A stretch of DNA of 64,000 nt from Schizochytrium sp. TIO01 (lineage: Eukaryota > Protista > Bigyra: Labyrinthulomycetes). The notes below the pieces were generated by a model. That model was not told the DNA's origin, ran no database searches, and saw only the letters and a program-made list of their open reading frames with translations. The stretch lies in contig SMSO01000034.1 of NCBI GenBank assembly GCA_004764695.1, positions 3,224,001-3,288,000 of the forward strand, given 5' to 3'. Position numbers and translations under genes: made by a program. Shown one piece after another: positions 31,015-47,788 of this stretch (positions within the stretch are counted from its first letter, which is position 1; each line of letters begins with the position of its first letter).

Positions 31015-32178
31015 ATGAGCTCACAAGCTTGCCTGTATGGCGTCCTTGGCGTGGAGGTCTCCGCCACACCTACTGAGATCAGGAAGGCCTACCGCACACT
31101 TGCACGCCGTTATCATCCAGACAAGAACGTTTTGGCCGGGAATCCTCAGAGTGAGGATGTTGCGCAGGTCCAGGACATGTTCTCACTCGTGGCAAGAGCG
31201 TACGAAGTTCTCATCGACCCAACTAAACGAGTAGCCTACGACATGTTGAATGGCCACGTTGATTCTGGCGACGTAAGTATGAAAACCCCATTCATTCCTT
31301 TTAAAAGGCACAACCAGCCACGCAAACTGATCTCACTAACCTAGATGTTTGAAACCGCACTCACCACAGACACACTATGCTGAGCTTGGACAAATGAAGA
31401 AAAAAGATGCAGAACAAGCAGTGGAGCTAATGCGCGTAAGTTTTACCTTAATTTGAAAAAGCTAGCGGGCTCTAATCAAAACTAACTCCGTGAGCAAAAC
31501 ATATTCACCCAAATTTGATATTCGATATTACAGCTCACTTTCGACATTAAACGCCGGACCGAGCTAAGCCGGGGAGGATTAGTTATTGACGATGCAGTCT
31601 ACGGCGCACGCGACATTATTGAAACAAACCGCTTGGAAGACCTTGCCACATCAAAATGGGTTCAGAATGTCACACGTCAACTGCAGTGCGCTGTTGAAAA
31701 ATCCAAGCTGGTTATCCCCGGCAATGAACCTAAACACTATCTTATCCCCGGCTTATACGACGCAGCTCCAGGCGAGGAAAAGCTGTTATGGGTGCGATAC
31801 TATTTTCGTGGAAAAATTCACCAAGTTGTTGTTCAAGATGAGCAGCGGCTACTCATGCCTCTCAAGTCACATTGTATCCAGAAATTTGCAAAGAAACAAT
31901 CCAAAATTAAGAAACTAATCCAACAAACGCAAAATGAAGAATCCGCAGACACCGCGATCACAAGCAAGAAGCGTAGCAGTAAACTCACGGGAGGGCTTAT
32001 TGCATTGCTTATTGCTCTCTCGACAAGCGGTGTTGCCTACGGCGTTGCGCATTTGGTGATGAACAAGAATGACACGGAATTTATGCAAAACATCATGCAA
32101 GGATTCATTAAAAGTCCTGGTTCTTCCTTTCATAATTTTATGCAAGCCATCTCAAGGCGTGCAAAATTTATCTCCTGA
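31015..32178 (+). CDS. J-domain protein fused to a DNAJC11-type C-terminal domain plus a C-terminal TM segment, ~322 aa; exons 31015-31272, 31370-31435, 31534-32178
   Basis: J-domain with HPD. Phase-0 GTAAG..CAG introns 31273-31369 (97 nt) and 31436-31533 (98 nt), each containing CTAAC, keep the frame open. AEQAVELMR, GGLVIDDAVYG, VTRQLQCAVEKSKL and IPGLYDAAPGEEKLLWVRYYFRGKIHQV match the DNAJC11 C-terminal domain. Confidence 0.85.
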
Positions 32179-35100
32179 GAATTTTATCTAATTGAATTGG
32201 TGGTTTGTACCCAAGTAACTCCTTGATCTCCTCCTCGGTTGTGTTAATACGACTCGCTGCTTCTTGCGTCATTGATTCTCGAGAAAACCAGTTTGAAGCG
32301 CGACCCTCTGGGGAAAGTTGTTCGCGGATCTTACGCCTCTCTCGCATAGCAATTTGATATGCTCGACGATTACTGAGAAAGATCTGGTGTTGGTTGCCAG
32401 TTTTCGCATCACCTAGAACACGAAAAAATTCTTGAAAGTCAATATAACCATCGCGCTTGCTATCCATGCTATCCATGAACAGCTCGAGATCTCTCCGGGA
32501 TAAGGTAGGGTCCAATTTGTGCATACCTCGACGAAAGTCTGACCGAGTTAACACACCGGTTTTTCTTGTATCCATGGAAAGAAAGAGGGTATGGAGCATG
32601 CCTTCTGTTTGACCCATTAAAGCCTCCAAGACTCGGTATCGAGCCTGAGCACGTTCTCCGGGGGAACCAGAGGCGCCTGAATTGGCACGACGACGCGATG
32701 GTTTGCGACGTGGCTCTGTTGCAATACTTCGTGATACACGACCGGCAGAGCTTGGACGACGCTTGGTAGCGGTCGTTGGCATGCCAGAAATATCTGATAC
32801 CATACGCGAAGTTGCTTTAACCGGTTTGGCTGCACTAAAACTGCCACGGCGTGGTACAGAGCGAGGCACTGCATTACGAAGAGCTTCAAATTGGTCGCGT
32901 AGATCAATACTATCAACAAGATTCAGAGCATTCAAATACTTTGCTTCCAGATCAGGATCAAGTAAATGATCCTCATTTTCAAAGCTTCGAGTTTTGCTTG
33001 ATCGTCGCTTGGATGATTTCTTTGGACTCGAGTGGCGTTTTACACGGCGAACTTGATCCTTCTCACGTGCTAGATAAGGTTCCTTCGTCTGTGCCTCATT
33101 TCTAAAAACCAAGGAAACAACTTCCACCTCATTTTCATCATCTTCGTCTTCGTCGTAATTATAGACCTGATTGAACCCATCCTCATCCTCGTCCTCGTCC
33201 TCGAAATTAATATTCTTATGGCCGTTGTCGAAGTCAACAACGTGTCGCTCTTCATCCGCCTGATTTCTACTGTGCATGGAATGAGGAGGTTCATACAGGT
33301 CCATATCGCCTTCTTCATCAAGGTCCTCATCATCCTCATCGCGACCAATGACAAGACCAAGTCTTCGTGTCTTGCCAGAGTACTCTGGCTTTCTCTGGTG
33401 CCGAGAAGCACTATGTACTTGCGGTGGCGGGCCTTCATCAGGGGAACGAAGAGCCAAAAATCCTGTTGGTACAGGGGAGTGTGCTGTTGCTGCAGAGTCC
33501 TCTCCAGGAGCGACAAGCATGGTATGGCGTAGGCGTTGGGCAAAATGCAATGCAGTCAAGAGCTCTGCGCTCTTGGGGTTGCGAACTGTAAGCGATGGAT
33601 GGATGAGAAGGTGAAACATGCATGCGTCCCTTCCAAAATTCTCCATCACTGACGCATTATTGGGAAAGCTCCGCGACCGTGCCGCAATTCCCAAGGTCTC
33701 CTCATCAAGGCAATCCCTCAAAATACCTAACAAGGTGACATTATTGAAGAGACGCATCAAAGTACCTGGAGAAGCCTCTGAGCCTTCGGCATCAAGATCT
33801 TGCCGACGAGCCATTGAATTAATGATTTGCACAAGAGCTTCCATGGTTTCGTCAGCAAAGTTCACTCGAGAAGCAGACGCAACCTCGACAATGTGCATTT
33901 TGCCATGCGGAGAATCTTCATCTTGTGAATAGGCATCGCCTGGGTCAATCCAAACAGTATACAACAGTAATGCTGTTTCTCTTTGCAACGTATTCTGCCC
34001 CCGTGATGGTTTGTTACCTCTGGAGCTCGATCTAGAGCCAAAGGATGAAGGCCCAAGAGCAGTATGATGATTACCCGATCCAACAGATGCAATGAGAGCT
34101 GCTTCATACCTAGTCTTAACATTTACAATGTTCAGTCCAGCAGCCTCGAGATCAACTCGTCCCGTTGCGCGCGCTGATACTTGATCGAACTGTAGTCGCG
34201 GGAACTCCTCCAATGTAGCACCACCACTACTGTGGTCATCTGACAAAAGATCGTAGACGTGAGATCCCTGTACGTGCACACAAGAAAGATTAACACGAGG
34301 CAAAATACTTGCAATATCGCCTTTTTCCTCGCCCTTGTATCCATGTGCAAGATTTTCTACGACATCGAATACTGCATTCAAAATGCTATTGGTCGTAGCA
34401 CTACTTGCAGGGCCCGAGGAGATCACTACAGCGCGATCACCATCAAAGAGAGCATCAACAATAGGAGCGACCTGCGCTCGGATACCATTTTGATTGCCAA
34501 GAAGAGGGTCAGAAGCAAGAACATCGGCCCCACTTGGAGCTGCATCCTTGATGTATACGACTTCATCGTAACCAAAGTAACGCTTCGAGGTGTCACTCTC
34601 TACCATCACCTCAGCAGAGGCGAGAATCGGTTCAACACGCAACATGTTTGTCATTGTGTCATTCTGGCCTCTTGTGTCAGAAGAGAGCCCATCGCTTGGA
34701 GCAGAATTCTCAAAAACGGAACAAATTCGCCGCACACGCTTATCACCAAAGCCCATGCGAGATTTGTGTAAGTTTCGGCGCCGAAGCCGTTCGAGTTCTA
34801 GCTTTCGGTTCATTGCAACATTTGAAAGACTAGATTTTGCCTGCAGCTCGTGACGAGCCACCGGCGCAAAGTTCTGGCGCTTAGAACGGAGCTTTTGTGA
34901 GTAGAGTCGCCACTGTGTCACGGCATCCGTGGTGAGGTCTTTCATTAGAGTGACCTGATTTGCAATATCCTGGAGTCCCTGGCGTAATTCTTTGAGATCG
35001 CCCTTTGCATGGACACCCAAAATACGCGCGCTTGGGCGGTGCCTTGCAATATAAGGTTTAACCTGTCTTGGTGGACTACGTGACTGGCTACGCGCTTCGT

Positions 35101-37720
35101 TTGCTGCATGGTGCTTTCGAAGCTCTGCGACTTCGCTGGATCTTTGCAAAAATCTTTCATTAGCTGTAGTAAGTTGATCCTGCACCAACTGAACTTGACC
35201 CTCTAATTGTGCAATACGTTCATGTGATACCTTAAGAGCATCACGTGCTGAGGCCCCTTCAGATTCAGCATGCTCTAGATCGTCCTGAAGGACTTGAGTT
35301 TGTCGTTCGAGACGAACCTTGGCCGCAACAGTCTGTTTCAGGTCGGCTGCAAGTTGTGTTGCTTCTTCCTTTTGGGATGCAAGCTCTCTGGCCTGAGATT
35401 CATTTTCAGCAGCAAGTTTACCAACATCTGCAGTCTGCTCTCGTACACGCAGTTCAGAGGCACGAAGCTGAGTTTGTGCAGAGCGCTCTGCTTCCCTCAA
35501 CTCATCAATGACACGATTGAGCTGAGAAATAGTCTGCAAGAGACGATCGACCTCTGCAGCGTTTATGGAAGCTTCCCCAGGGCTTTCCGTCAGCTTATCT
35601 GCATTGAGAGGTGCATTGGTGCCCCCCAGGTTTGATCCAGAGTCGTTCATGACCTTACGAAATTTGTCTTGACTCTGCTTCAATTGTACTTGAAGTTCTT
35701 CAACGCGAGCTTTCCAGTCTTCGCGTTCACTACGGGCGGCAACGGCAGCAGCTGTAGCAGCCCCGGATTCTGTTGCTTTCTCCTGCAGCTCATGTTTGAG
35801 TTCACGTATAGATTGCTCCAGTCGCGTAACTCGGTCATCAGCCTCGGCACTTGCGTCGCGTCTCATCTGCAGTAGTTGCATCTCTGAGCGTAAATCATCT
35901 TCACGAGCTTGCTGTTCGCGAGCCTGATATTCATACCGTTCAATATCACGCGCCCTTTGCTTTTCAAGGTCTTGTTTAGCCTTTTCGAGCTCTGTCATCT
36001 TGCATTCTACGCTTTCACGAAGTCGAGACTCCTTCTTAGCTTCCAATTTTGCTTCGGCAACTTGCTCGCGCAGTACCTGCAGTGAATCGTCGTCACCGCG
36101 AATGGGTGAAGGAGGAGATGAGAACAGGGGTTCTCTAGATTGGTGGAAGCCAGGTGACCCGGGTGCTGGTGAAAATGCTCCTGGAGAGAGAGGCATATCC
36201 GCAGTTGTATCCGCAAATGATAGGGGCTCTGCAGTAGTCGCCTTATTAAGCCATAACGCAGCTGGGTCCACAGGCCCAGTTTGGAGAGCAGCTAATCGTC
36301 TGACATCATCAATTTTATCCATGCTTAAAACGATGCTCAATTCCAATTTGTGGCGAGGGCCCGTGAACCATCTTCTGAAGGTAATTTCATCCCCGTTGAG
36401 TGTCACAGTTGAAGGCTCAAAATGTAAAAGTTCCCAGAACGGCAAATCCCACTCTTGAGGCCCCGCATCTCGATCACACTGAAGTCGAACTTGTAAGCGG
36501 CCATTCTCAGGAAGCCCTTCCTCATGAGCTCCAAAAACAAAGACTTCATCCCAAATAGGATTTGTCACGGATTCTGCGAGGTCTGTGCGAAATGTTTCTC
36601 CGCCTACACTACACCGAACACAAGCATCACATCGTGAACCAAGATCCGCTTGGTGTACAGTCACACGTAAAATCGACAATAAGGCTACCTCGCGTGAAGG
36701 TGCCCTACGCAAATCGCTCTTTCGCTTCCCCCCTTGCTGTCGTTGGGTCCAGGTTGCCACCAAGTCAAAATTATCATCATCATCGTCATCGTCATCAACT
36801 GCATTTGAATTGGTAGTGGACAGAGTTGGAGTACCAATCTTGGGAACCTCTTTCGTCACTCCGCTTGATGAACCAGCTTTGGGTTGTTCACGAGTAATGG
36901 AGGAGATAGAAGCTGCAGAACTACCCAATGTGCTACTTGTGCGAGGCTCTAGATCTCTGTCCACAAGCCAGTCATCGTCCGCCATTGCAAAAAAGGAACC
37001 TTTAGTTGCCTCAGGAGGAGACCAGTACTGCTTGCTTGGATTAACACGGGTTGTTTCGAAAACATTAAAAAACTCCTGAAAGGTGATTACTCCATCTCCA
37101 TTGAGATCCACGGACTTTGTAAAACGCTTCAGAGTAGCGGTATCTAAGCCAATACCAAGATTCAGCAACCCACGAAAAAGCTCATCACGGCTCAGGTAAC
37201 CTTTCTTTGTGTTATCCATAATTAGAAAGGCGTCATAAAGCTTAGAGTGCGTTGATTCGACAGCACTCTTCACGGCCGCAATAATTTCCTTTTGTGCCAT
37301 TGAATCTCCATCACCTTTGCTCGATGAAAAGCTTAAATTGCTTCTGCTACTCTGCGGGCTTAGACGTGGCTGCGATAGGAAACCAAAAGACAAATCCCGC
37401 AACGGACTTGCTGCAATTTGTGGCTTCGGAATGAAAGACTTATCACGTCGGCGATGTGCACGTGCCTCATGCTCAGCGGAAAGCATATCTTCTAGAGGTG
37501 AACGGGCCGCAGCGGAACTCGCAATCGAAGCAACATCATCAGCAGCGACAAGATCTAATGAGGTCAAAGGCCCCTTGGAATCCCCTCCCATACTGAAAGG
37601 CGAATGCACCTCCTCCTCACTTGAGCGTGGAGTTGACATAATCTTACTTCCTTCCTGTCTGAATACTTGAAGGTTTGTAGCGCTCAAGCCTTGATGATGA
37701 TGACGATGGGGGGGTTGCAT
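32168..37720 (-). CDS. Multidomain protein: EF-hand pair, C2, coiled coil, degenerate kinesin motor fold, EF-hand pair (1850-aa ORF, probably the 3' part of a larger gene)
   Basis: EF loops DNTKKGYLSRDE and DLNGDGVITFQE (N-terminal), DTRKTGVLTRSD and DSKRDGYIDFQE (C-terminal). C2-like ILRVTVHQA...FRT...NPIWDEVFVF. About 400 aa of heptads. Kinesin-like FGYDEV, VAPIVDALFDG, VYDLL, LLGILRDCL and ELLTALHFAQRLR. Confidence 0.85.
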   Translation of the reverse strand: MQPPHRHHHQGLSATNLQVFRQEGSKIMSTPRSSEEEVHSPFSMGGDSKGPLTSLDLVAADDVASIASSAAARSPLEDMLSAEHEARAHRRRDKSFIPKPQIAASPLRDLSFGFLSQPRLSPQSSRSNLSFSSSKGDGDSMAQKEIIAAVKSAVESTHSKLYDAFLIMDNTKKGYLSRDELFRGLLNLGIGLDTATLKRFTKSVDLNGDGVITFQEFFNVFETTRVNPSKQYWSPPEATKGSFFAMADDDWLVDRDLEPRTSSTLGSSAASISSITREQPKAGSSSGVTKEVPKIGTPTLSTTNSNAVDDDDDDDDNFDLVATWTQRQQGGKRKSDLRRAPSREVALLSILRVTVHQADLGSRCDACVRCSVGGETFRTDLAESVTNPIWDEVFVFGAHEEGLPENGRLQVRLQCDRDAGPQEWDLPFWELLHFEPSTVTLNGDEITFRRWFTGPRHKLELSIVLSMDKIDDVRRLAALQTGPVDPAALWLNKATTAEPLSFADTTADMPLSPGAFSPAPGSPGFHQSREPLFSSPPSPIRGDDDSLQVLREQVAEAKLEAKKESRLRESVECKMTELEKAKQDLEKQRARDIERYEYQAREQQAREDDLRSEMQLLQMRRDASAEADDRVTRLEQSIRELKHELQEKATESGAATAAAVAARSEREDWKARVEELQVQLKQSQDKFRKVMNDSGSNLGGTNAPLNADKLTESPGEASINAAEVDRLLQTISQLNRVIDELREAERSAQTQLRASELRVREQTADVGKLAAENESQARELASQKEEATQLAADLKQTVAAKVRLERQTQVLQDDLEHAESEGASARDALKVSHERIAQLEGQVQLVQDQLTTANERFLQRSSEVAELRKHHAANEARSQSRSPPRQVKPYIARHRPSARILGVHAKGDLKELRQGLQDIANQVTLMKDLTTDAVTQWRLYSQKLRSKRQNFAPVARHELQAKSSLSNVAMNRKLELERLRRRNLHKSRMGFGDKRVRRICSVFENSAPSDGLSSDTRGQNDTMTNMLRVEPILASAEVMVESDTSKRYFGYDEVVYIKDAAPSGADVLASDPLLGNQNGIRAQVAPIVDALFDGDRAVVISSGPASSATTNSILNAVFDVVENLAHGYKGEEKGDIASILPRVNLSCVHVQGSHVYDLLSDDHSSGGATLEEFPRLQFDQVSARATGRVDLEAAGLNIVNVKTRYEAALIASVGSGNHHTALGPSSFGSRSSSRGNKPSRGQNTLQRETALLLYTVWIDPGDAYSQDEDSPHGKMHIVEVASASRVNFADETMEALVQIINSMARRQDLDAEGSEASPGTLMRLFNNVTLLGILRDCLDEETLGIAARSRSFPNNASVMENFGRDACMFHLLIHPSLTVRNPKSAELLTALHFAQRLRHTMLVAPGEDSAATAHSPVPTGFLALRSPDEGPPPQVHSASRHQRKPEYSGKTRRLGLVIGRDEDDEDLDEEGDMDLYEPPHSMHSRNQADEERHVVDFDNGHKNINFEDEDEDEDGFNQVYNYDEDEDDENEVEVVSLVFRNEAQTKEPYLAREKDQVRRVKRHSSPKKSSKRRSSKTRSFENEDHLLDPDLEAKYLNALNLVDSIDLRDQFEALRNAVPRSVPRRGSFSAAKPVKATSRMVSDISGMPTTATKRRPSSAGRVSRSIATEPRRKPSRRRANSGASGSPGERAQARYRVLEALMGQTEGMLHTLFLSMDTRKTGVLTRSDFRRGMHKLDPTLSRRDLELFMDSMDSKRDGYIDFQEFFRVLGDAKTGNQHQIFLSNRRAYQIAMRERRKIREQLSPEGRASNWFSRESMTQEAASRINTTEEEIKELLGYKPPIQLDKILRR

Positions 37721-40700
37721 CTACATTGGCTTCGATTGAAGCTGAAAGCTGAGCCAAACGAGCTCCAGACTGTGTTTGAGAAAGATTATCATCAGGCTTC
37801 GTTTGATCCTCTTCAAATCCAACCCCTTCTCCTTTACCTTCTTGCTCCGTTTCATTCAGGTTCTGAAACTCCTCGTAATCTTCATCATCTCCTGGAAGGT
37901 TCATCTTGTGAGGTGTACGAGGAGACTGTGACGGGCTCGAATAAGACAATGATTTGTCGTCCTGATCACCATGGTCGGATGGAGAGTAAGCCGAACCGGG
38001 ATATGATGCTGGAGTAGCCGGAGTTGTAGATGCTTGCATTCCAAAGGCTTCAGCTTTCCCTGGTGGCAAATGTGTCAGGGGAGATGGCATAGCAAGAGGT
38101 ATTGGTTTTACAATAGCAGGCGACTCAGGTGGCGACTCTGAAGCATCGTGCGCAGACCTCCCAGAGCTTTGATGTTCTGCAGAACTAAACTGTGACTGTG
38201 CGCTAGAAACCGGCGATGCAGAGATTTTACTCTCTGGGGATTTTGCTGAGCTTGAACGCAGTACTGAAGATGATGAGAGGTGGGAAGCAGGACTAGCTGC
38301 ATCAAATTGTGACGCTGCGTCGCCAGTCTCCTTTACCACTGAGTCCAAACCCCTGTCACCTAACTTTGAAGAACCCGAAGTTGCACCCAGGCTTTTCTCA
38401 CCCGGTGATGATGCAATACTACGTGAAGCCTCAATGTTGTTTCCGCTTAGATCTAAACTTACGGCCCTATCCTCCAGGACATAGTCACTAGTTTTCTCAA
38501 TGTCGCTACTCAATTCTGCCTCTTCTGCACCACTTGTTTCGCTGGAACAAGAATAATCCTTGTTGCTCGGCGACGAAGCCTGCTCCGAGACAGCAAGAGG
38601 AGACCCAACAAACGCTTTGTCGTCGCTGTTGGCGCCTGGAGAAGATATGTCTTGTTCTGAGTTCTGGTTCGAATGATGACTTCTGGGACTTTCAAAATTT
38701 CCCTCGCTCAACTTTTCGGATACGGCCTCGTCTTTATGAAAATTCGGAGAAGCTTCTACCAAAGAGTTATCGTCTTCAAAGGCGCCTGAATAGGGCTTTT
38801 TTGAACTACCTCCTGTTGCATCAGCATTGCCCATATTCTCACCTGCAAAGAAAGTGTCTTCGGAAATAATTGGATGCCCAGCCTTACTATCCATAGAGGA
38901 GATTTCGCTTGCTTTAGAGAGCACAGAAGGACTTACAGCACTGTTGTTAAGAGGCGAAGAAGTAGAAGAATTCTCCGCCTGAATGTGTGACTCGAATTCT
39001 TCACCTCCATCGCTTCTAACCTTCGAGGATGTGTTACTCACGGGAGATAACGCCTGGGCTTGACTGTCAGGAGCAATAGCAACATCTTTTGCGTGCACAG
39101 CAAATTCTGTGTCAATGTTAATATTCGTTGTCCTATCGCCTTGATCCACAGAAGCTGTGCCAGCTTGATCATCAGGCCCGCCATCTCCTTTAGTGCCATT
39201 TTTAGAAAATGAATCATCAACATCGCTGCAATCGTCGCAGCGTCCGAGAGGTGCACTACTTTGAATGTTCAAAACACTGTCATCGTCATTCTCTTCATTA
39301 TACTCAACCTCGGATGCCGTATCACGCTCAATGCCATATTCTTCATGTTCTTCCTTGAGTTCATCGTTGCGCTCATCGTCGTTCTCTTCACTGAGCCCAT
39401 CGTTTTGCTTGCCACTAGGCTTATCGCTGTTTTTACTGCCGTCCTCGTCACTAAGTCCTTTCTCAAATCCACTGATATGCTCAGTTCCGTTCACCTTATC
39501 ATTGTACTTGTTTCTGAACCTCCCACTATGCTCACCGCTGCGATCATCACTATATTCACCACTGTACTCACTACCGTGCCCAGCGCTGAGTTGATCGCTA
39601 TGCTCATCACTTTGTTCATCGACAAAACTATTGTCATGCTCTGAATTCTCCACATGATCGTGCTCACCGATGTGGTCAATATCATACTGAACGCCATGCT
39701 CCCCATCGTGCTCATTACCAAATTCATTGTTATATCCAGTAACCAAATTATTGCTATGTTTAGCGTTGAGATTGACATTAAGTCCATCACAGTATTCGTC
39801 ACTGTGCCTATTACTATATTCGTCGTCAAAGTCATTGCTATGCCCGGCATAGTGCTCTAGGTTGTCTACTTCCTCATTATCAACCCTGTGCGAATTACTA
39901 CTCCCAAGGCTGAGCTTATCATCATGCTCAGAGCAATACTCACTGGCATGCGAATCGTCCAAGTCCTTTCCAGCTTTAGTTCCATGCTCCGCCTCAAAAT
40001 CATCATTTTGCTTTCCAACTTCGTCAAACCTGCTTAGTGACTCGCTACTAATGATGGATTGATGCTCGTGATCATTTGATGAATGAATCGCTGCATTATT
40101 GCTAGAATCCTGAGATTGGTTTTCAGACCCTTCTTCATTGTGTTCTCTAGAATCCTGCGATTGGTTTTCAGACCCTTCTTCATTGTGTTCTCTAGAATCC
40201 TGCGATTGGTTTTCAGACCCTTCTTCATTGTATTCTCCGAGGCTAAAGTTCTCATGTCCATGCAACGCGTGGTCACTTTCATTTTCTCCTTCAAAGCTGT
40301 GCTCATTTACAAGATAGTCCGCCTTAGCAAGGCTGCCGGGAGACTGCAAGGCACCGTTAGAAGAATTTGACTCTTCAGCTGAGTGACCATCAACGCTTAA
40401 AGAATCATGGTTTCCATTTGGTGTTTCTTCTTCGCTGTCGTCGTCCAAACGACCAAGGTCCTCAGAAGACCTATCATCGTTCTCTTCTGAATGAGAACAG
40501 GCATCAACAGATTGGCTTTCCTCAATGTACATGAGTCCATCTGATGGGTGTTCAGAGCCATCAGTACTCTGTTGATCGGTTTCTTCATTACCATCGTCAA
40601 ATGTTGCGCTGTTTACATACTCATCGTGATTCTGCAGTTGTGATACCTGCTGGGAGACAGAAGACTCAGTTACAACTTGGATACCCTGGCCAAGTGATCG

Positions 40701-41816
40701 CACGTCTTCGTCTAGCCCTTCATACGGGACATCCACATATTGTCCCGCTAAGTTGTTGTGGAATTCTTGGACACTTTCCTCCATTTCATTTCCATGGCCT
40801 GTGCTTTCAGCAAAGTCCTCCTCAGAATCTACGTCTGCAGAGGCAATATTAGAAGTTTGACTAGTCACACCTTCAGCATGATCATCGCAGCTCTTTTCTG
40901 TTTGTTCCTCATCCTCAACAGGGCTATAGCGCTCGAAAAGTAGTCCATTTGAATGTTGCGGACTTTCATGGATTGAGTCATGTTCATCCATTGAGTAATC
41001 TTCGCTTATTTCGAGGTCGCTTTGGGAGCGCGGCGTGAGAGGCTCCTTGTCTCGCATACTAAATTCACTTTCGCTACCAAAGTCACCTTCCTCGACGTCA
41101 ATCTTAAGGGTATTGGGTTCTGCAGGCGGTAATGTACCTGAGCCTGAAGACTTGGGTTCTTCACTTGAGTTATCGGATCCTAGCAGGCTTACAAGTTCCT
41201 TTTGGTCATCTTCTTGTACCACGACAGCTTTCGGATCAAAGTGCACGTGCTTTTCGTCAGAAACACCCGCATGGACGGCCGGAGCATGCGTTTCATCTTC
41301 TTTTGTTTGGTCACCATCAAAAGTAACGCTCTCTTCCTCCAGTGGGAGATCTTCATTCTCAGATATCGAGTTAGAAGATGATTCGGCCTCGACTTCTATA
41401 TCCTTGATGTCTTCGCCAGCTCCGCCTTTGTTGCCTTGATCCTCCTCTTCCTCACCCTCCTCTTCGAAGTCATCCTCGAAGTCATCATCCTGGCCGTAGC
41501 TTTCTATGCTCGATTCCTGCACGCTCATTGGCGTTTCATCCTCGCTGTGTTCTCGGTCTTCCTCCAAATCTTCCTCAGATCCAGCCTTCGTGTTCCGCGT
41601 GTCTTGTTTTTCATAATCCTCATAATCCTCATAATCCTCCTCATCGCTATCATCATCGTTTTCGGCTTCAACGTCGTCTTCATTTCCAAGGCCTTTTCCA
41701 AGTCCCGCAATGTCTTCTTTGTCGGAATCCGAGCCTAAGCTATAAGAGCTTTCCTTCTCGGTCGCTGCTGGAGGAGGCGATGCTGGCACGTGCGGCATCT
41801 CGGGCGGCAGGTCCAT
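37644..41816 (-). CDS. Very acidic, Ser/His-rich intrinsically disordered protein (~1390 aa; probably the 5' part of the gene continuing in 32168-37720)
   Basis: 4.2-kb uninterrupted ORF, first ATG at 41816, dominated by D/E/S; no recognisable domain. Confidence 0.8.
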   Translation of the reverse strand: MDLPPEMPHVPASPPPAATEKESSYSLGSDSDKEDIAGLGKGLGNEDDVEAENDDDSDEEDYEDYEDYEKQDTRNTKAGSEEDLEEDREHSEDETPMSVQESSIESYGQDDDFEDDFEEEGEEEEDQGNKGGAGEDIKDIEVEAESSSNSISENEDLPLEEESVTFDGDQTKEDETHAPAVHAGVSDEKHVHFDPKAVVVQEDDQKELVSLLGSDNSSEEPKSSGSGTLPPAEPNTLKIDVEEGDFGSESEFSMRDKEPLTPRSQSDLEISEDYSMDEHDSIHESPQHSNGLLFERYSPVEDEEQTEKSCDDHAEGVTSQTSNIASADVDSEEDFAESTGHGNEMEESVQEFHNNLAGQYVDVPYEGLDEDVRSLGQGIQVVTESSVSQQVSQLQNHDEYVNSATFDDGNEETDQQSTDGSEHPSDGLMYIEESQSVDACSHSEENDDRSSEDLGRLDDDSEEETPNGNHDSLSVDGHSAEESNSSNGALQSPGSLAKADYLVNEHSFEGENESDHALHGHENFSLGEYNEEGSENQSQDSREHNEEGSENQSQDSREHNEEGSENQSQDSSNNAAIHSSNDHEHQSIISSESLSRFDEVGKQNDDFEAEHGTKAGKDLDDSHASEYCSEHDDKLSLGSSNSHRVDNEEVDNLEHYAGHSNDFDDEYSNRHSDEYCDGLNVNLNAKHSNNLVTGYNNEFGNEHDGEHGVQYDIDHIGEHDHVENSEHDNSFVDEQSDEHSDQLSAGHGSEYSGEYSDDRSGEHSGRFRNKYNDKVNGTEHISGFEKGLSDEDGSKNSDKPSGKQNDGLSEENDDERNDELKEEHEEYGIERDTASEVEYNEENDDDSVLNIQSSAPLGRCDDCSDVDDSFSKNGTKGDGGPDDQAGTASVDQGDRTTNINIDTEFAVHAKDVAIAPDSQAQALSPVSNTSSKVRSDGGEEFESHIQAENSSTSSPLNNSAVSPSVLSKASEISSMDSKAGHPIISEDTFFAGENMGNADATGGSSKKPYSGAFEDDNSLVEASPNFHKDEAVSEKLSEGNFESPRSHHSNQNSEQDISSPGANSDDKAFVGSPLAVSEQASSPSNKDYSCSSETSGAEEAELSSDIEKTSDYVLEDRAVSLDLSGNNIEASRSIASSPGEKSLGATSGSSKLGDRGLDSVVKETGDAASQFDAASPASHLSSSSVLRSSSAKSPESKISASPVSSAQSQFSSAEHQSSGRSAHDASESPPESPAIVKPIPLAMPSPLTHLPPGKAEAFGMQASTTPATPASYPGSAYSPSDHGDQDDKSLSYSSPSQSPRTPHKMNLPGDDEDYEEFQNLNETEQEGKGEGVGFEEDQTKPDDNLSQTQSGARLAQLSASIEANVDATPPSSSSSRLERYKPSSIQTGRK
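40102..40236 (-). repeat. In-frame 45-bp tandem repeat x3 (E[Y/H]NEEGSENQSQDS[R/S])
   Basis: Three near-identical 45-nt units inside the acidic ORF. Confidence 0.95.
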
Positions 41817-43850: not shown

Positions 43851-45337
43851 AGAGATGGGATTGTTGAAAATCAAACACCAAAATTATGCTAGCCAAATTG
43901 GCTACCTTCTATTCACAGGTTAGTTTTAATTTTAATATTAGTCGTCGCTGTCATAGTTTTCGAGCACATTGTTGTTTTGGTAGTGAGTTCTGTTTATAGT
44001 TCGGATAGAAAGACAATAATATTGAATTTTAAAAGTAGCTTTCATACGCGTTGCATAACTTTATCTTAATTTTAAAACCTTACTATTTATATATATAATT
44101 TTTTCTTATTAAAATAATTAATAATTAAATAATTAGGCAGATACTTTTTAATTTAAAAAAGAAAAACTTGAACATGGTGAGAAATGACTTAGATAGACAA
44201 TAATAATTCAGAGGGCAGTCATATTGGCATACCAAGTTGAAGCAAATCCAAGCACGCGTCGCATGAGAAAGCGCCAGTGCGACGTACAATTCAGGTTTAC
44301 TGGTGTTGTGAACTCAACACAGGCCTCACAGAGGAGAGCCTTGGCATACTTAGAACACATGGAGGCAGTGAGGAACGTTCGGTTTTCAAGCAGGCTCAGG
44401 TATCAGCATCTTGAGAATGGCGAAGGATCAACAAAGCAAAGAAATGCGGCAATAGAAACGAGCGACGACGCGACCAGACGCCGTACACAAGTTTGACAAA
44501 GTATTGAACGGGTTGTCACGGCGGCGGCGGGCTTGGGGATAGCCGCGAGGTACGCTCGATGAGGATTCTCGTACTACCAAAGAGAAACGCTCAGTGCAAC
44601 TTGCAATTGTATGCAGCTCAAACGGCCTATCAAGTATAAATAGATCGAGACACTCCGTCAATTTCTTCGAAAGGTCTGCATTCTTTTTTCCTCTGCCCCG
44701 AACCTTCTCCCGTCCTTCTCCCGTCCTTCTCCTTGAGCCGTCTTCGTCTCCGCTTTCAAGCCCACATCCTCGAGTCCAGCGATGGCCAGAACTATAGAAT
44801 CAGCATGCTAAGCCAAGTCTTGGGCCCCTTTGCTCGACCTTCGCGCGACCTCCGCTGCCATACCTAGCGAGCCGCACAAGACGGTCATGAGAGGGTGTAA
44901 TCCACCTTGAGTAGATCCAAATTCAATCGTGAGCAGTGCAGAGTCTTATGGATCTTGCAAGCTGAGCTCTGTGTGGCTGGGCTCTTGAACATGAGACCGT
45001 TGCAAAAAAAGAGAACAGAAAATAAACAGAAGAAACTAAGGAGAAATAAGAAACGAATAGCAATATGAGACAAACCTTCAACCACGACAACCATCGTGAG
45101 AACCTCAACTGCAGGCGCCTTGCTGCGGGCAAGCGGCGGGTGCAAATTGTCCTGGAATAGGTCCTGCTGCGCAGACGGATACTTGGGCTTGAGTGGCAAA
45201 TACGATGTAAGTGCATGAAGTTAACTGGAGACAAAGTTGATGGAAGAGTTTTGCTTTGATACCTGCGACGGCTGCTGTAGTTAGAGGTGAAGATTGATAT
45301 ACGAATATACGAATGGAGAGAGCCCTGAGAACTGACG

Positions 45338-47788
45338 ATGGACTTAAATAGGGGAGCGGCAGAATCTGTTGTGCGCAATGTGGATAAACGCACCGCACGG
45401 CGTGAAAATAGAAAAGCTTTTATAGAAGGAATTGCTCAGTTTCGAGCCCAACACCAACTGCTTCAAGGTGAAAATGCAAATCAAGGACCTGAAGTGAGTT
45501 CTGATGCAGGATCTGCGCAAGATGTTCAAAACGCTGCAAACCATACTAATGATGAAGACCAGATGGTTCGGGTATTCGTGCGGAAACGGCCTATCTTCCC
45601 CCACGAGCTTGAGCAAAAGGAATTCGATGTCATCTCGAGCGATAAAACTCATGGCGAACTCTTTGTGCATGACGCACGTATGGAAGCAGACATGAAAGGA
45701 AGGTTTTTGAATCATCACAAGTTCAGCTTCTCAGAGGTTTTTTCGGAGAATGATGACAGTGATAAGGTCTACGATAATGTCATACAGCCCTTGGTACGTC
45801 TCACGCGCCAAGGGGGCAATGGCACAGCCCTTATGTACGGTCAAACTGGGTCCGGAAAGTCATATACAATGTCGCACATCTACTATCGTTCGGCCTGGGC
45901 ACTCTTTGAAGGATCTGCTACGGAGGATGAGAACGACCGCGGACCTGCAATCCGCAGAGCTTGGGTCTCCTTTGTAGAGCTCACTGGGGACACGTGTGCG
46001 GATGTGCTCAATGGAAACCAGAAACTACAGCTCTTAACTTGCCCTAACGGTGATGTCATCACATTCCCCGCAGTTCAGGTAGAAGTATCTTCACCGCAAG
46101 AGCTCCACGACTGCATCAAGTTTGCTTGTAGTCTGCGTGCAACAGCTGCAACCGGTGTGCATGATCAATCGTCGCGTTCACATGCCCTATGTCGGGTTGA
46201 ACTGGAAGGAGGTAACGCTCTAACAATGGTCGATCTTGCAGGTAGCGAGCATCGAATTGATTCAGCTGACCACGATGCACAACGTCGCAAAGAAAGCGCA
46301 CAAATTAACAGTTCACTCATGAAACTGAAAGAATGCATTCGTGCTCGCGCACGCAATGCAGATTACATTCCATACCGTCAAAGTAAATTGACGCATTTGC
46401 TACGGCCCTCGTTTGTGGAAGACCCAAATACAAAGAGTCGTACGGTGATCATTGCCACAGTTTCCCCATCAAGTAAAGACACTGAACATTCATTAAACAC
46501 ACTTCGACACTCTTGCATTATGGATGGACAAGACCCTCAAGATGGAGAGACTCGCTGGGTTTCTGGTGGCACTACTGTAAGACAAAATCTCCCGCCTGTC
46601 GATGTAACGATGCTTGCTCGTCAGCGTAAGGCTCGCCAGAGTAGGGGTGAAGTCCCTTCTGAGGGTCCGAGCTGGGGCTCGGCCCCCTCTAAGCACCACT
46701 CGCGAGACGGCAGTTTCGACAATGTAGCAAAAGCGGCAAGTCAGAAGAAAGCATTGGCTCTGAAAGAAAGAAAACGTCGTCAGGCGGAAAATGCTGCCCG
46801 AAAAACACTATCAGCTGCTGCACTTGAGAAACTAGAAATTGCGCGCTCTCATTGCGGGTATCGGCAGCGTGAGCGTATGAATCGATTACAATTTGAGGCT
46901 AAAGAGAAGGCACGTTTGGAGATGGAAGCACCACAGAAAACAGATAGTAAATCCTATAAACTACCTAAGATCCCTTCCAACCGGCTAGGAAGTGCATCTA
47001 GTAAGAACAAGCCAACGGCTCCAAGTAGCGGACGAAGCAGGCCAAGCCCGCGCGAGCCTGTGCAAAGTGTAGGTATATTAGCCCCTAATAATGCTAGCAG
47101 GTCAAATGTAGAAATCCGCGTCAGGTCGCCTCCCTTAGATGCGGTTCCCTCATTAGCACAAGTGCAGAGGTCTAGGAAAAGCAAACCTGCTGCAGCGGCA
47201 TCTCCAATTGACCTTGACGCGCTTCGTGCAAAGGTCTGGAATGACCCTAACGTGCCTGATGATCAAAAGGAAGAGTATATTGTGATGCTCATCAAGCAAG
47301 CGCGTGAACGAAGATCAACTACTGGAAACGCAGTTTCTCACAATCCGAAAAGTCAACATAATTCTGCACTGCCTGCGCCCAATACCGCTTCCAACTCCCA
47401 ATCACTTGTTGCCCAGAAGCCTATGAGTAGGCATGAAAAGGTGCAACAAGCACGACTTCGTATGATTGAAAAGGAACAGAGTCTTGCTAGACGCAAGCTT
47501 GATCGTAAGATGGAAGCTCATGCACATGTTGCGACGACTTCAAGCACAGCGTCGGTGAGCAGCAATAATATGGATGAGTTGCGTGCTGAGATAGGTCGTT
47601 TACATTCTCAACTTCAGCAAGAAACCGATCAGGTGACAAAGTTTGCACTGAAACAACAATACAGTCGCACCAAGGCTACATTGATGCGTTTCGAGCGACA
47701 GAAGAAGCAAGCTGTAGCAATGGAATCCCCATCGAGAGCGAGTGCACAACAACCATTGGAGAGTATTTCTCCTCGAACACTAGAATAA
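45338..47788 (+). CDS. Kinesin-13-like motor protein with a near-N-terminal motor and a long C-terminal tail (816 aa)
   Basis: RVFVRKRP, YGQTGSGKSYT (P-loop), SSRSHA (switch I), DLAGSE (switch II), INSSLMKLKECIRA (kinesin-13 KEC), IPYRQSKLT and EHSLNTLRH. Confidence 0.9.
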   Translation: MDLNRGAAESVVRNVDKRTARRENRKAFIEGIAQFRAQHQLLQGENANQGPEVSSDAGSAQDVQNAANHTNDEDQMVRVFVRKRPIFPHELEQKEFDVISSDKTHGELFVHDARMEADMKGRFLNHHKFSFSEVFSENDDSDKVYDNVIQPLVRLTRQGGNGTALMYGQTGSGKSYTMSHIYYRSAWALFEGSATEDENDRGPAIRRAWVSFVELTGDTCADVLNGNQKLQLLTCPNGDVITFPAVQVEVSSPQELHDCIKFACSLRATAATGVHDQSSRSHALCRVELEGGNALTMVDLAGSEHRIDSADHDAQRRKESAQINSSLMKLKECIRARARNADYIPYRQSKLTHLLRPSFVEDPNTKSRTVIIATVSPSSKDTEHSLNTLRHSCIMDGQDPQDGETRWVSGGTTVRQNLPPVDVTMLARQRKARQSRGEVPSEGPSWGSAPSKHHSRDGSFDNVAKAASQKKALALKERKRRQAENAARKTLSAAALEKLEIARSHCGYRQRERMNRLQFEAKEKARLEMEAPQKTDSKSYKLPKIPSNRLGSASSKNKPTAPSSGRSRPSPREPVQSVGILAPNNASRSNVEIRVRSPPLDAVPSLAQVQRSRKSKPAAAASPIDLDALRAKVWNDPNVPDDQKEEYIVMLIKQARERRSTTGNAVSHNPKSQHNSALPAPNTASNSQSLVAQKPMSRHEKVQQARLRMIEKEQSLARRKLDRKMEAHAHVATTSSTASVSSNNMDELRAEIGRLHSQLQQETDQVTKFALKQQYSRTKATLMRFERQKKQAVAMESPSRASAQQPLESISPRTLE

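What the first reader, a model, noticed from the sequence alone, without database searches (positions are those of the whole stretch)
37593..37723. Two giant ORFs overlap in the +1 frame: a ~3200-aa gene joined by a tiny intron, recoding or an indel
Seen: the acidic ORF ends ...TGRK* at 37644. The next ORF starts at 37720, immediately after an in-frame TAG, giving a 77-nt overlap and no room for a promoter. Three joins restore one frame. (a) A 55-nt phase-2 intron GTAAGA...TTTCAG (37647-37593) gives AA|T ATG GGA and 3197 aa. It is shorter than the other introns here (97-157 nt), has no CTAAC branch site and reads as coding. (b) A +1 slip or one extra base in the C7 run (37708-37714, ACC CCC CCA) gives 3215 aa. 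(c) A 4-nt GGAA duplication just before the stop. Inference: if the intron is sometimes retained, or ribosomes slip, the locus would make either a stand-alone acidic protein or the full Ca2+/lipid/microtubule scaffold, i.e. a regulated switch.
Basis: partly seen in the sequence, partly recalled or inferred. Interest (0 to 1): 0.75.

Follow-up and report, generated by a model that had tools for sequence, protein, structure and literature searches.

The report
One extra base splits one gene
The two 'overlapping' giant reading frames are one gene of about 3,200 amino acids that reads straight through in other sequencing data from this marine protist; this sequence carries one extra G that breaks it, most likely a sequencing error and not a regulated switch.

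Summary
The described sequence features exist, but the overlap is not a biological arrangement. All 4 of 4 public runs laid on the locus (4 studies) lack one base at 37650: the minus-strand GG at 37651-37650 is a single G. Without it, 41816-32168 is one intron-free frame of 3,215 aa. The C7 run and the 55-nt 'intron' are unchanged in the runs. A 77-nt off-frame overlap is expected by chance here. The window is a distinct haplotype whose own reads were not found. An assembly error (about 0.75) therefore cannot be fully separated from a strain-private frameshift allele (about 0.2). Regulated splicing or recoding is about 0.03. RNA evidence could not be tested. The intact product is an uncharacterised thraustochytrid protein: acidic N-terminus, EF-hands, C2, predicted coiled coil, a kinesin-like domain lacking the catalytic motifs, EF-hands. 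No earlier finding of this scan matched this locus.

The parts
32168..41816 (-). One gene; a single open frame of 3,215 aa when base 37650 is left out, with no intron needed in the coding region
   Evidence: full-length counterpart P0009 (3,200 aa)
37650..37651 (-). GG where the other strains have G: the extra base that breaks the frame (assembly error or private allele)
   Evidence: left out in 4 of 4 runs, each a contig with long flanks on both sides; a codon-usage scan puts the frame switch at 37656/37655
37644..41816 (-). ORF1 as assembled = acidic, Ser-rich N-terminal part (24% D+E, 16.5% S), likely disordered; no Pfam hit
   Evidence: 1,359 of 1,375 aligned residues identical to P0009
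37651..37720 (-). Apparent overlap: the ORF2-frame reading here is an off-frame shadow; P0009 reads this stretch in the ORF1 frame
37593..37647 (-). Proposed 55-nt intron: coding sequence in P0009, 49% GC; not supported as an intron
37708..37714 (-). C7 run proposed as slip site or error: no gap listed here in any of the 4 runs
   Evidence: table 4
40103..40229 (-). 45-nt (15-aa) tandem repeat, three copies here, two in P0009 (in-frame copy-number difference)
37058..37246 (-). First EF-hand pair
   Evidence: Pfam EF-hand_7, E 6.5e-19 for the protein; coordinates
36485..36667 (-). C2 domain (partial match)
   Evidence: Pfam C2 E 1.2e-4; E 1.1e-11 in homolog P0004
34841..36079 (-). Predicted coiled-coil region (approximate bounds)
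   Evidence: inferred from the sequence; weak ERM_helical hit, E 0.009, below cut-off
33521..34753 (-). Kinesin-like domain lacking P-loop, switch I and switch II consensus motifs (predicted non-catalytic)
32414..32560 (-). Second EF-hand pair
   Evidence: Pfam EF-hand_8, E 2.5e-6, just under cut-off

Best explanation
The locus is one intron-free gene of about 3,215 codons that this sequence breaks with a single extra G at 37650/37651, most likely an assembly or base-calling error. Shown: other strains lack the base and read through in one frame. Inferred: the window's own isolate also has the single G and makes the full protein by ordinary translation. Predicted: that protein is a calcium- and membrane-responsive scaffold with a non-catalytic kinesin-like domain.
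For:: base 37650 is left out in 4 of 4 runs from 4 studies (contig depths 364.5, 8.6, 17.3, 65.5). It is the only gap all four share in 8,001 bases; leaving it out gives 9,648 nt and 3,215 aa with one terminal stop. P0009 (3,200 aa) holds both halves at about 99% identity and its junction equals that reading (1 of 4 joins tested matched); 11 of 11 listed substitutions private to the window downstream of the break are synonymous (23% expected; p about 1e-7), so the downstream half has been kept under purifying selection in this lineage; codon usage switches frame at 37656/37655; the Hondaea fermentalgiana gene model also puts an acidic N-terminus (25% D+E) in front of the EF-C2-coiled-coil-kinesin-like core in one protein. 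A G-to-GG change is of the homopolymer-indel type described for long-read assemblies (PMC12007338, passages read).
Against: No run from the window's own isolate was identified: the best word share is 0.92, and 22-40 other letters differ on the three single-piece contigs. The error is therefore inferred, not observed. The sequencing method is unknown. The assembly looks otherwise accurate: no non-synonymous private change among the listed ORF2 rows, and no other sense-strand frame switch in 17,892 bases of other long ORFs (these ORFs were picked for length, so this is a weak test). Only 4 of the 20 holders were laid. P0009 carries the two changes seen only in run X2, so it is probably not independent of that strain. 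The Hondaea acidic region does not align with ORF1, and it is a predicted model.
Confidence: 0.75

Rival explanations
1. The extra G is a real, recent frameshift allele private to this strain (homozygous or heterozygous). It would truncate the protein to the 1,390-aa acidic part, probably with mRNA decay, making a loss-of-function allele and not a switch.
For: The window is a genuine separate haplotype: 14 of 40 listed substitutions differ from all four runs. The assembly is otherwise clean. A recent null allele would still show mostly synonymous older changes.
Against: The downstream half is strongly constrained (20 of 24 listed ORF2 substitutions synonymous), which makes a tolerated null allele less likely. 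None of the 4 laid runs carries the allele.
Confidence: 0.2
2. The G is real and the frame is restored part of the time, by splicing of the 55-nt GTAAGA...TTTCAG stretch or by a +1 ribosomal slip, giving a short acidic and a long scaffold form.
For: The GT..AG cut and the C7 run exist and each would restore one frame in this sequence. Splicing was not tested on RNA.
Against: The break is not shared: 4 of 4 runs and P0009 need no recoding. The same 55-nt cut would truncate the single-G allele at residue 1399. The stretch is translated in P0009 and is 49% GC. Eleven other cuts restore the frame on paper as well.
Confidence: 0.03
3. Two separate genes, an acidic protein and an EF-hand/C2 protein starting at 37720 or at the next ATG near 37639.
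For: Each ORF has an ATG and a stop in this sequence. The core has homologs cut at their 5' ends (P0004, P0006, P0008).
Against: One continuous frame in 4 of 4 runs and in P0009. The shorter homologs lie on contigs of 3.0-5.8 kb, so their starts are probably contig ends.
Confidence: 0.02

Closest known systems
Gene-fragmenting single-base indel in a genome assembly (PMC12007338; abstract and passages read)
   Same: One homopolymer-type indel splits a long ORF that is whole in related sequences.
   Different: Not confirmed with the isolate's own reads; the sequencing method is unknown.
Hondaea fermentalgiana FCC1311_039942 / GBG27771.1 (2,260 aa, hypothetical EF-hand protein; P0003)
   Same: 50% identical over 1,273 columns of the EF-C2-coiled-coil-kinesin-like core; an acidic N-terminus is in the same predicted protein.
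   Different: Its acidic region is shorter (about 560 aa) and does not align; the model lacks the C-terminal EF-hand pair.
Non-catalytic kinesin motor homology domains, Vik1/Cik1 of yeast Kar3 (PMC4338441; passages read)
   Same: A C-terminal kinesin-like domain after a predicted coiled coil that lacks the nucleotide-binding motifs. This is a 'works like' lead only.
   Different: No homology to Vik1 or Cik1 was tested. Here the domain sits in a 3,200-aa protein with EF-hands and C2; no partner motor or microtubule binding is shown.
Programmed +1 frameshift genes such as antizyme and Ty1 (recalled, not from a call)
   Same: Two ORFs overlapping in the +1 frame, as assembled.
   Different: In those systems the frame break is conserved across alleles and species; here it is absent from 4 of 4 other strains.

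Membership tests
Programmed +1 ribosomal frameshift gene | Frame break conserved in other alleles and orthologs | tested here: not met
   4 of 4 runs and P0009 are continuous
Programmed +1 ribosomal frameshift gene | Trans-frame product shown by ribosome profiling or peptides | not testable with these tools
   no such data on hand
Spliceosomal intron (55 nt, 37647-37593) | GT..AG ends that restore the frame | tested here: met
   it is 1 of 12 such cuts under 160 nt
Spliceosomal intron (55 nt, 37647-37593) | Compatible with conspecific alleles | tested here: not met
   the cut truncates the single-G allele at residue 1399; the stretch is translated in P0009
Spliceosomal intron (55 nt, 37647-37593) | Branch-site motif before the acceptor | tested here: not met
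   the YTRAC..YAG pattern scan lists no acceptor at 37593; the pattern is crude
Spliceosomal intron (55 nt, 37647-37593) | Removed from mRNA | tested here: inconclusive
   no joint, but the RNA status of X2 and X8 is only a guess and they lack the extra G
Kinesin motor (PF00225) | P-loop GxxxxGK[ST], switch I SSRSH, switch II DLAGSE (motifs recalled; the window's own kinesin has all three) | tested here: not met
   absent from P0009, P0003 and P0006 (3 of 3), present in the control
Kinesin motor (PF00225) | Kinesin motor fold or profile similarity | tested here: inconclusive
   suggestive: homolog P0004 E 7.5e-7, 28.9 bits against a cut-off of 29.3; no Pfam hit for the window's own domain; atlas 0.90 to a kinesin cluster; model pLDDT 41.6; Foldseek no E under 0.001 but listed rows are almost all kinesins; best Z 8.9, rmsd 3.4, 131 aligned
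Kinesin motor (PF00225) | Microtubule binding and ATPase activity | not testable with these tools
   needs a bench assay

The most novel reading that the evidence does not exclude
The extra G is real in this isolate and the cell rescues it by splicing out the cryptic 55-nt GTAAGA...TTTCAG stretch, or by a +1 slip: a new intron caught in the act of compensating a frameshift, yielding a short acidic and a long scaffold form.
Probability: 0.03. Interest if true: 0.6.

Novelty: not a real feature. Interest (0 to 1): 0.1.

Why it matters
As found, it matters only for annotation: the gene should be modelled as one coding sequence of about 3,215 aa and the base at 37650/37651 checked. If the G were real, the strain would be a natural null mutant of a large conserved thraustochytrid gene. 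If splicing rescued it, it would be a rare case of intron birth compensating a frameshift. The intact protein, with a predicted non-catalytic kinesin-like domain joined to EF-hands and C2, is uncharacterised and of modest interest for labyrinthulomycete cell biology.

Tried and rejected
No whole genome is held for this window. No RNA holder was listed, so expression and splicing are untested; the X2 and X8 labels are guesses and their contigs cannot show transcripts. Only 4 of 20 holders were laid, over 32000-40000, so the other 16 and the wider indel rate of the assembly stay open. Rejected joins: 55-nt intron, C7 loss and GGAA loss all give a junction unlike P0009 (3 of 4 joins). Two further 1-nt gaps (32310, 36728) occur only in X16 at depth 8.6 and were set aside as probable errors of that contig. 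The single joint listed (33203-33320, side 21 letters) comes from another contig. Five substitution rows were not shown by the tool and are not in my counts. A search for longer proteins with ORF1 residues 900-1394 found none among 2,974 candidates; P0009 turned up later as a cluster member, so that blank meant nothing. Exact look-ups of the window's ORFs found 0 of 3. The metagenome locus scan confirmed 0 of 152 pattern matches. The PDB sequence search with the kinesin-like region alone found 0, and BLAST to the window's own kinesin was not significant. The structure model is low-confidence. Literature searches: Aurantiochytrium + genome assembly + frameshift gave 2 unrelated papers, thraustochytrid + kinesin + EF-hand gave 0, A. 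limacinum + heterozyg + ploidy gave 1 unrelated paper; only the listings were seen. My two-intron model for the neighbouring DnaJ gene failed, so I make no claim on the shortest intron in the window. Earlier findings near this place or like this sequence: none.

Full report
Observation. On the minus strand ORF1 runs from ATG 41816 to TAA 37646-37644 (1,390 aa, acidic and Ser-rich, no Pfam hit). ORF2 runs from ATG 37720 to 32168 (1,850 aa; EF-hands, C2). They overlap by 77 nt in the +1 frame. The three joins exist on paper and give 3,197, 3,215 and 3,214 aa. The overlap itself is what chance gives: in this frame 91% of ORF1's codons lie in open stretches of 23 codons or more, and stop+ATG hexamers occur 6 times in the gene. 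The 55-nt cut is 1 of 12 frame-restoring GT[AG]..AG cuts under 160 nt.

Other strains. Of 24 listed runs, 20 hold the stretch, with word shares of 0.80-0.92; none is near 1.0. I laid 4 of the 20, from 4 studies, on 32000-40000. All four leave out one base at 37650, each on a contig that bridges the site with long flanks, and this is the only gap they share. No gap is listed at C7, no 4-nt gap, and no joint at 37592^37648. Two other 1-nt gaps occur only in the low-depth X16 contig. Without base 37650 the gene is 9,648 nt and 3,215 aa with one stop. A codon-usage scan places the frame switch at 37656/37655, about five bases away (the model was trained partly on these ORFs).

Full-length protein. 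A search with ORF2 residues 960-1410 found an 862-aa fragment whose cluster contains P0009, 3,200 aa, from Logan assemblies on 2 contigs. P0009 matches ORF1 at 1,359 of 1,375 aligned residues. From ORF2 residue 25 to the end it differs at 4 positions. Its residues 1370-1382 read IQTGRSKIMSTPR. Of four joins tested, only the loss of 37650 reproduces this junction. P0009 has one 15-aa repeat unit fewer. It carries the two changes seen only in X2, so it is probably not an independent strain. The Hondaea fermentalgiana model P0003 (2,260 aa) is 50% identical over 1,273 columns of the core and also has an acidic N-terminus in the same protein, though that part does not align.

Error or allele. The window is a real, separate haplotype: 14 of the 40 listed substitutions differ from all four runs (5 more rows were not shown). 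In ORF2, 11 of 11 such private changes are synonymous against 23% expected (p about 1e-7), and 20 of 24 ORF2 rows overall. In ORF1 only 3 of 16 rows are synonymous, as expected for a loosely constrained acidic region. The half downstream of the break has therefore been under purifying selection in this lineage, which favours an error or a very recent null allele. Against an error: the assembly is otherwise clean, with no other sense-strand frame switch in 17,892 bases of long ORFs (a weak test), and the method is unknown. A G read as GG is of the homopolymer-indel type reported for long-read assemblies (PMC12007338, abstract and passages). I put error at 0.75 and private allele at 0.2.

The switch reading. 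Programmed frameshifts and regulated introns are kept across alleles (established knowledge). Here the other strains need neither, and the 55-nt cut would truncate their allele at residue 1399. The stretch is 49% GC and is translated in P0009. Splicing was not tested on RNA, so rescue in this one isolate is not excluded (0.03).

What the protein likely is. Shown by profile hits: two EF-hand pairs and a C2 domain. Inferred: a disordered acidic N-terminus of about 1,400 aa and a coiled coil. Residues about 2355-2765 resemble a kinesin motor domain. Homolog P0004 hits Pfam Kinesin at E 7.5e-7, just under the cut-off. The alignment profile reaches PDB kinesins at E 2.5e-4 and the atlas gives 0.90 to a kinesin cluster. 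A low-confidence model (pLDDT 41.6) ranks kinesins at the top (no E under 0.001; best Z 8.9, rmsd 3.4, 131 aligned). The P-loop, switch I and switch II motifs are absent in 3 of 3 long homologs and present in the window's true kinesin. It is therefore not filed as a kinesin motor. It may work like the non-catalytic Vik1/Cik1 domains, which bind microtubules without hydrolysing ATP (PMC4338441, passages); this is untested. Only 3 representatives among 1.84 billion matched this region at E up to 0.001, and one paper search found nothing on it.

Verdict. The flagged overlap or switch is not a real feature of the gene: one extra base in this sequence splits an ordinary single-frame gene. Interest 0.1.

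Noticed in passing
window 33521-34753 (-): Kinesin-like domain without P-loop or switch motifs, conserved in Hondaea and in a more distant unnamed homolog (P0004/P0006) together with C2 and EF-hands; a candidate lineage-restricted non-catalytic kinesin scaffold.
   Followed up: partly
window 31015-32178 (+) and 32168-32178: A DnaJ / DnaJ-C11-like gene (Pfam hits) converges on the giant gene, and their reading frames overlap by 11 nt at the stop codons. One 261-nt cut (31273-31533) gives an open 300-aa frame; the true exon structure is unresolved.
   Followed up: partly
window 40103-40229 (-): 45-nt tandem repeat in the acidic region: three copies here, two in P0009.
   Followed up: yes
window 42315-42204 (-): Intron-like 112-nt stretch (GTAAGG...CTAACGTATAG) about 390 nt upstream of the ATG; a possible 5' UTR intron.
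   Followed up: no
window 45329-47788 (+): A conventional kinesin gene with intact motifs lies 3.5 kb upstream of the giant gene, divergently oriented; any link to the kinesin-like domain is untested.
   Followed up: no
window 32000-40000: The window shares some variants only with X1 and others only with X16, a mosaic pattern that may reflect recombination among strains.
   Followed up: no
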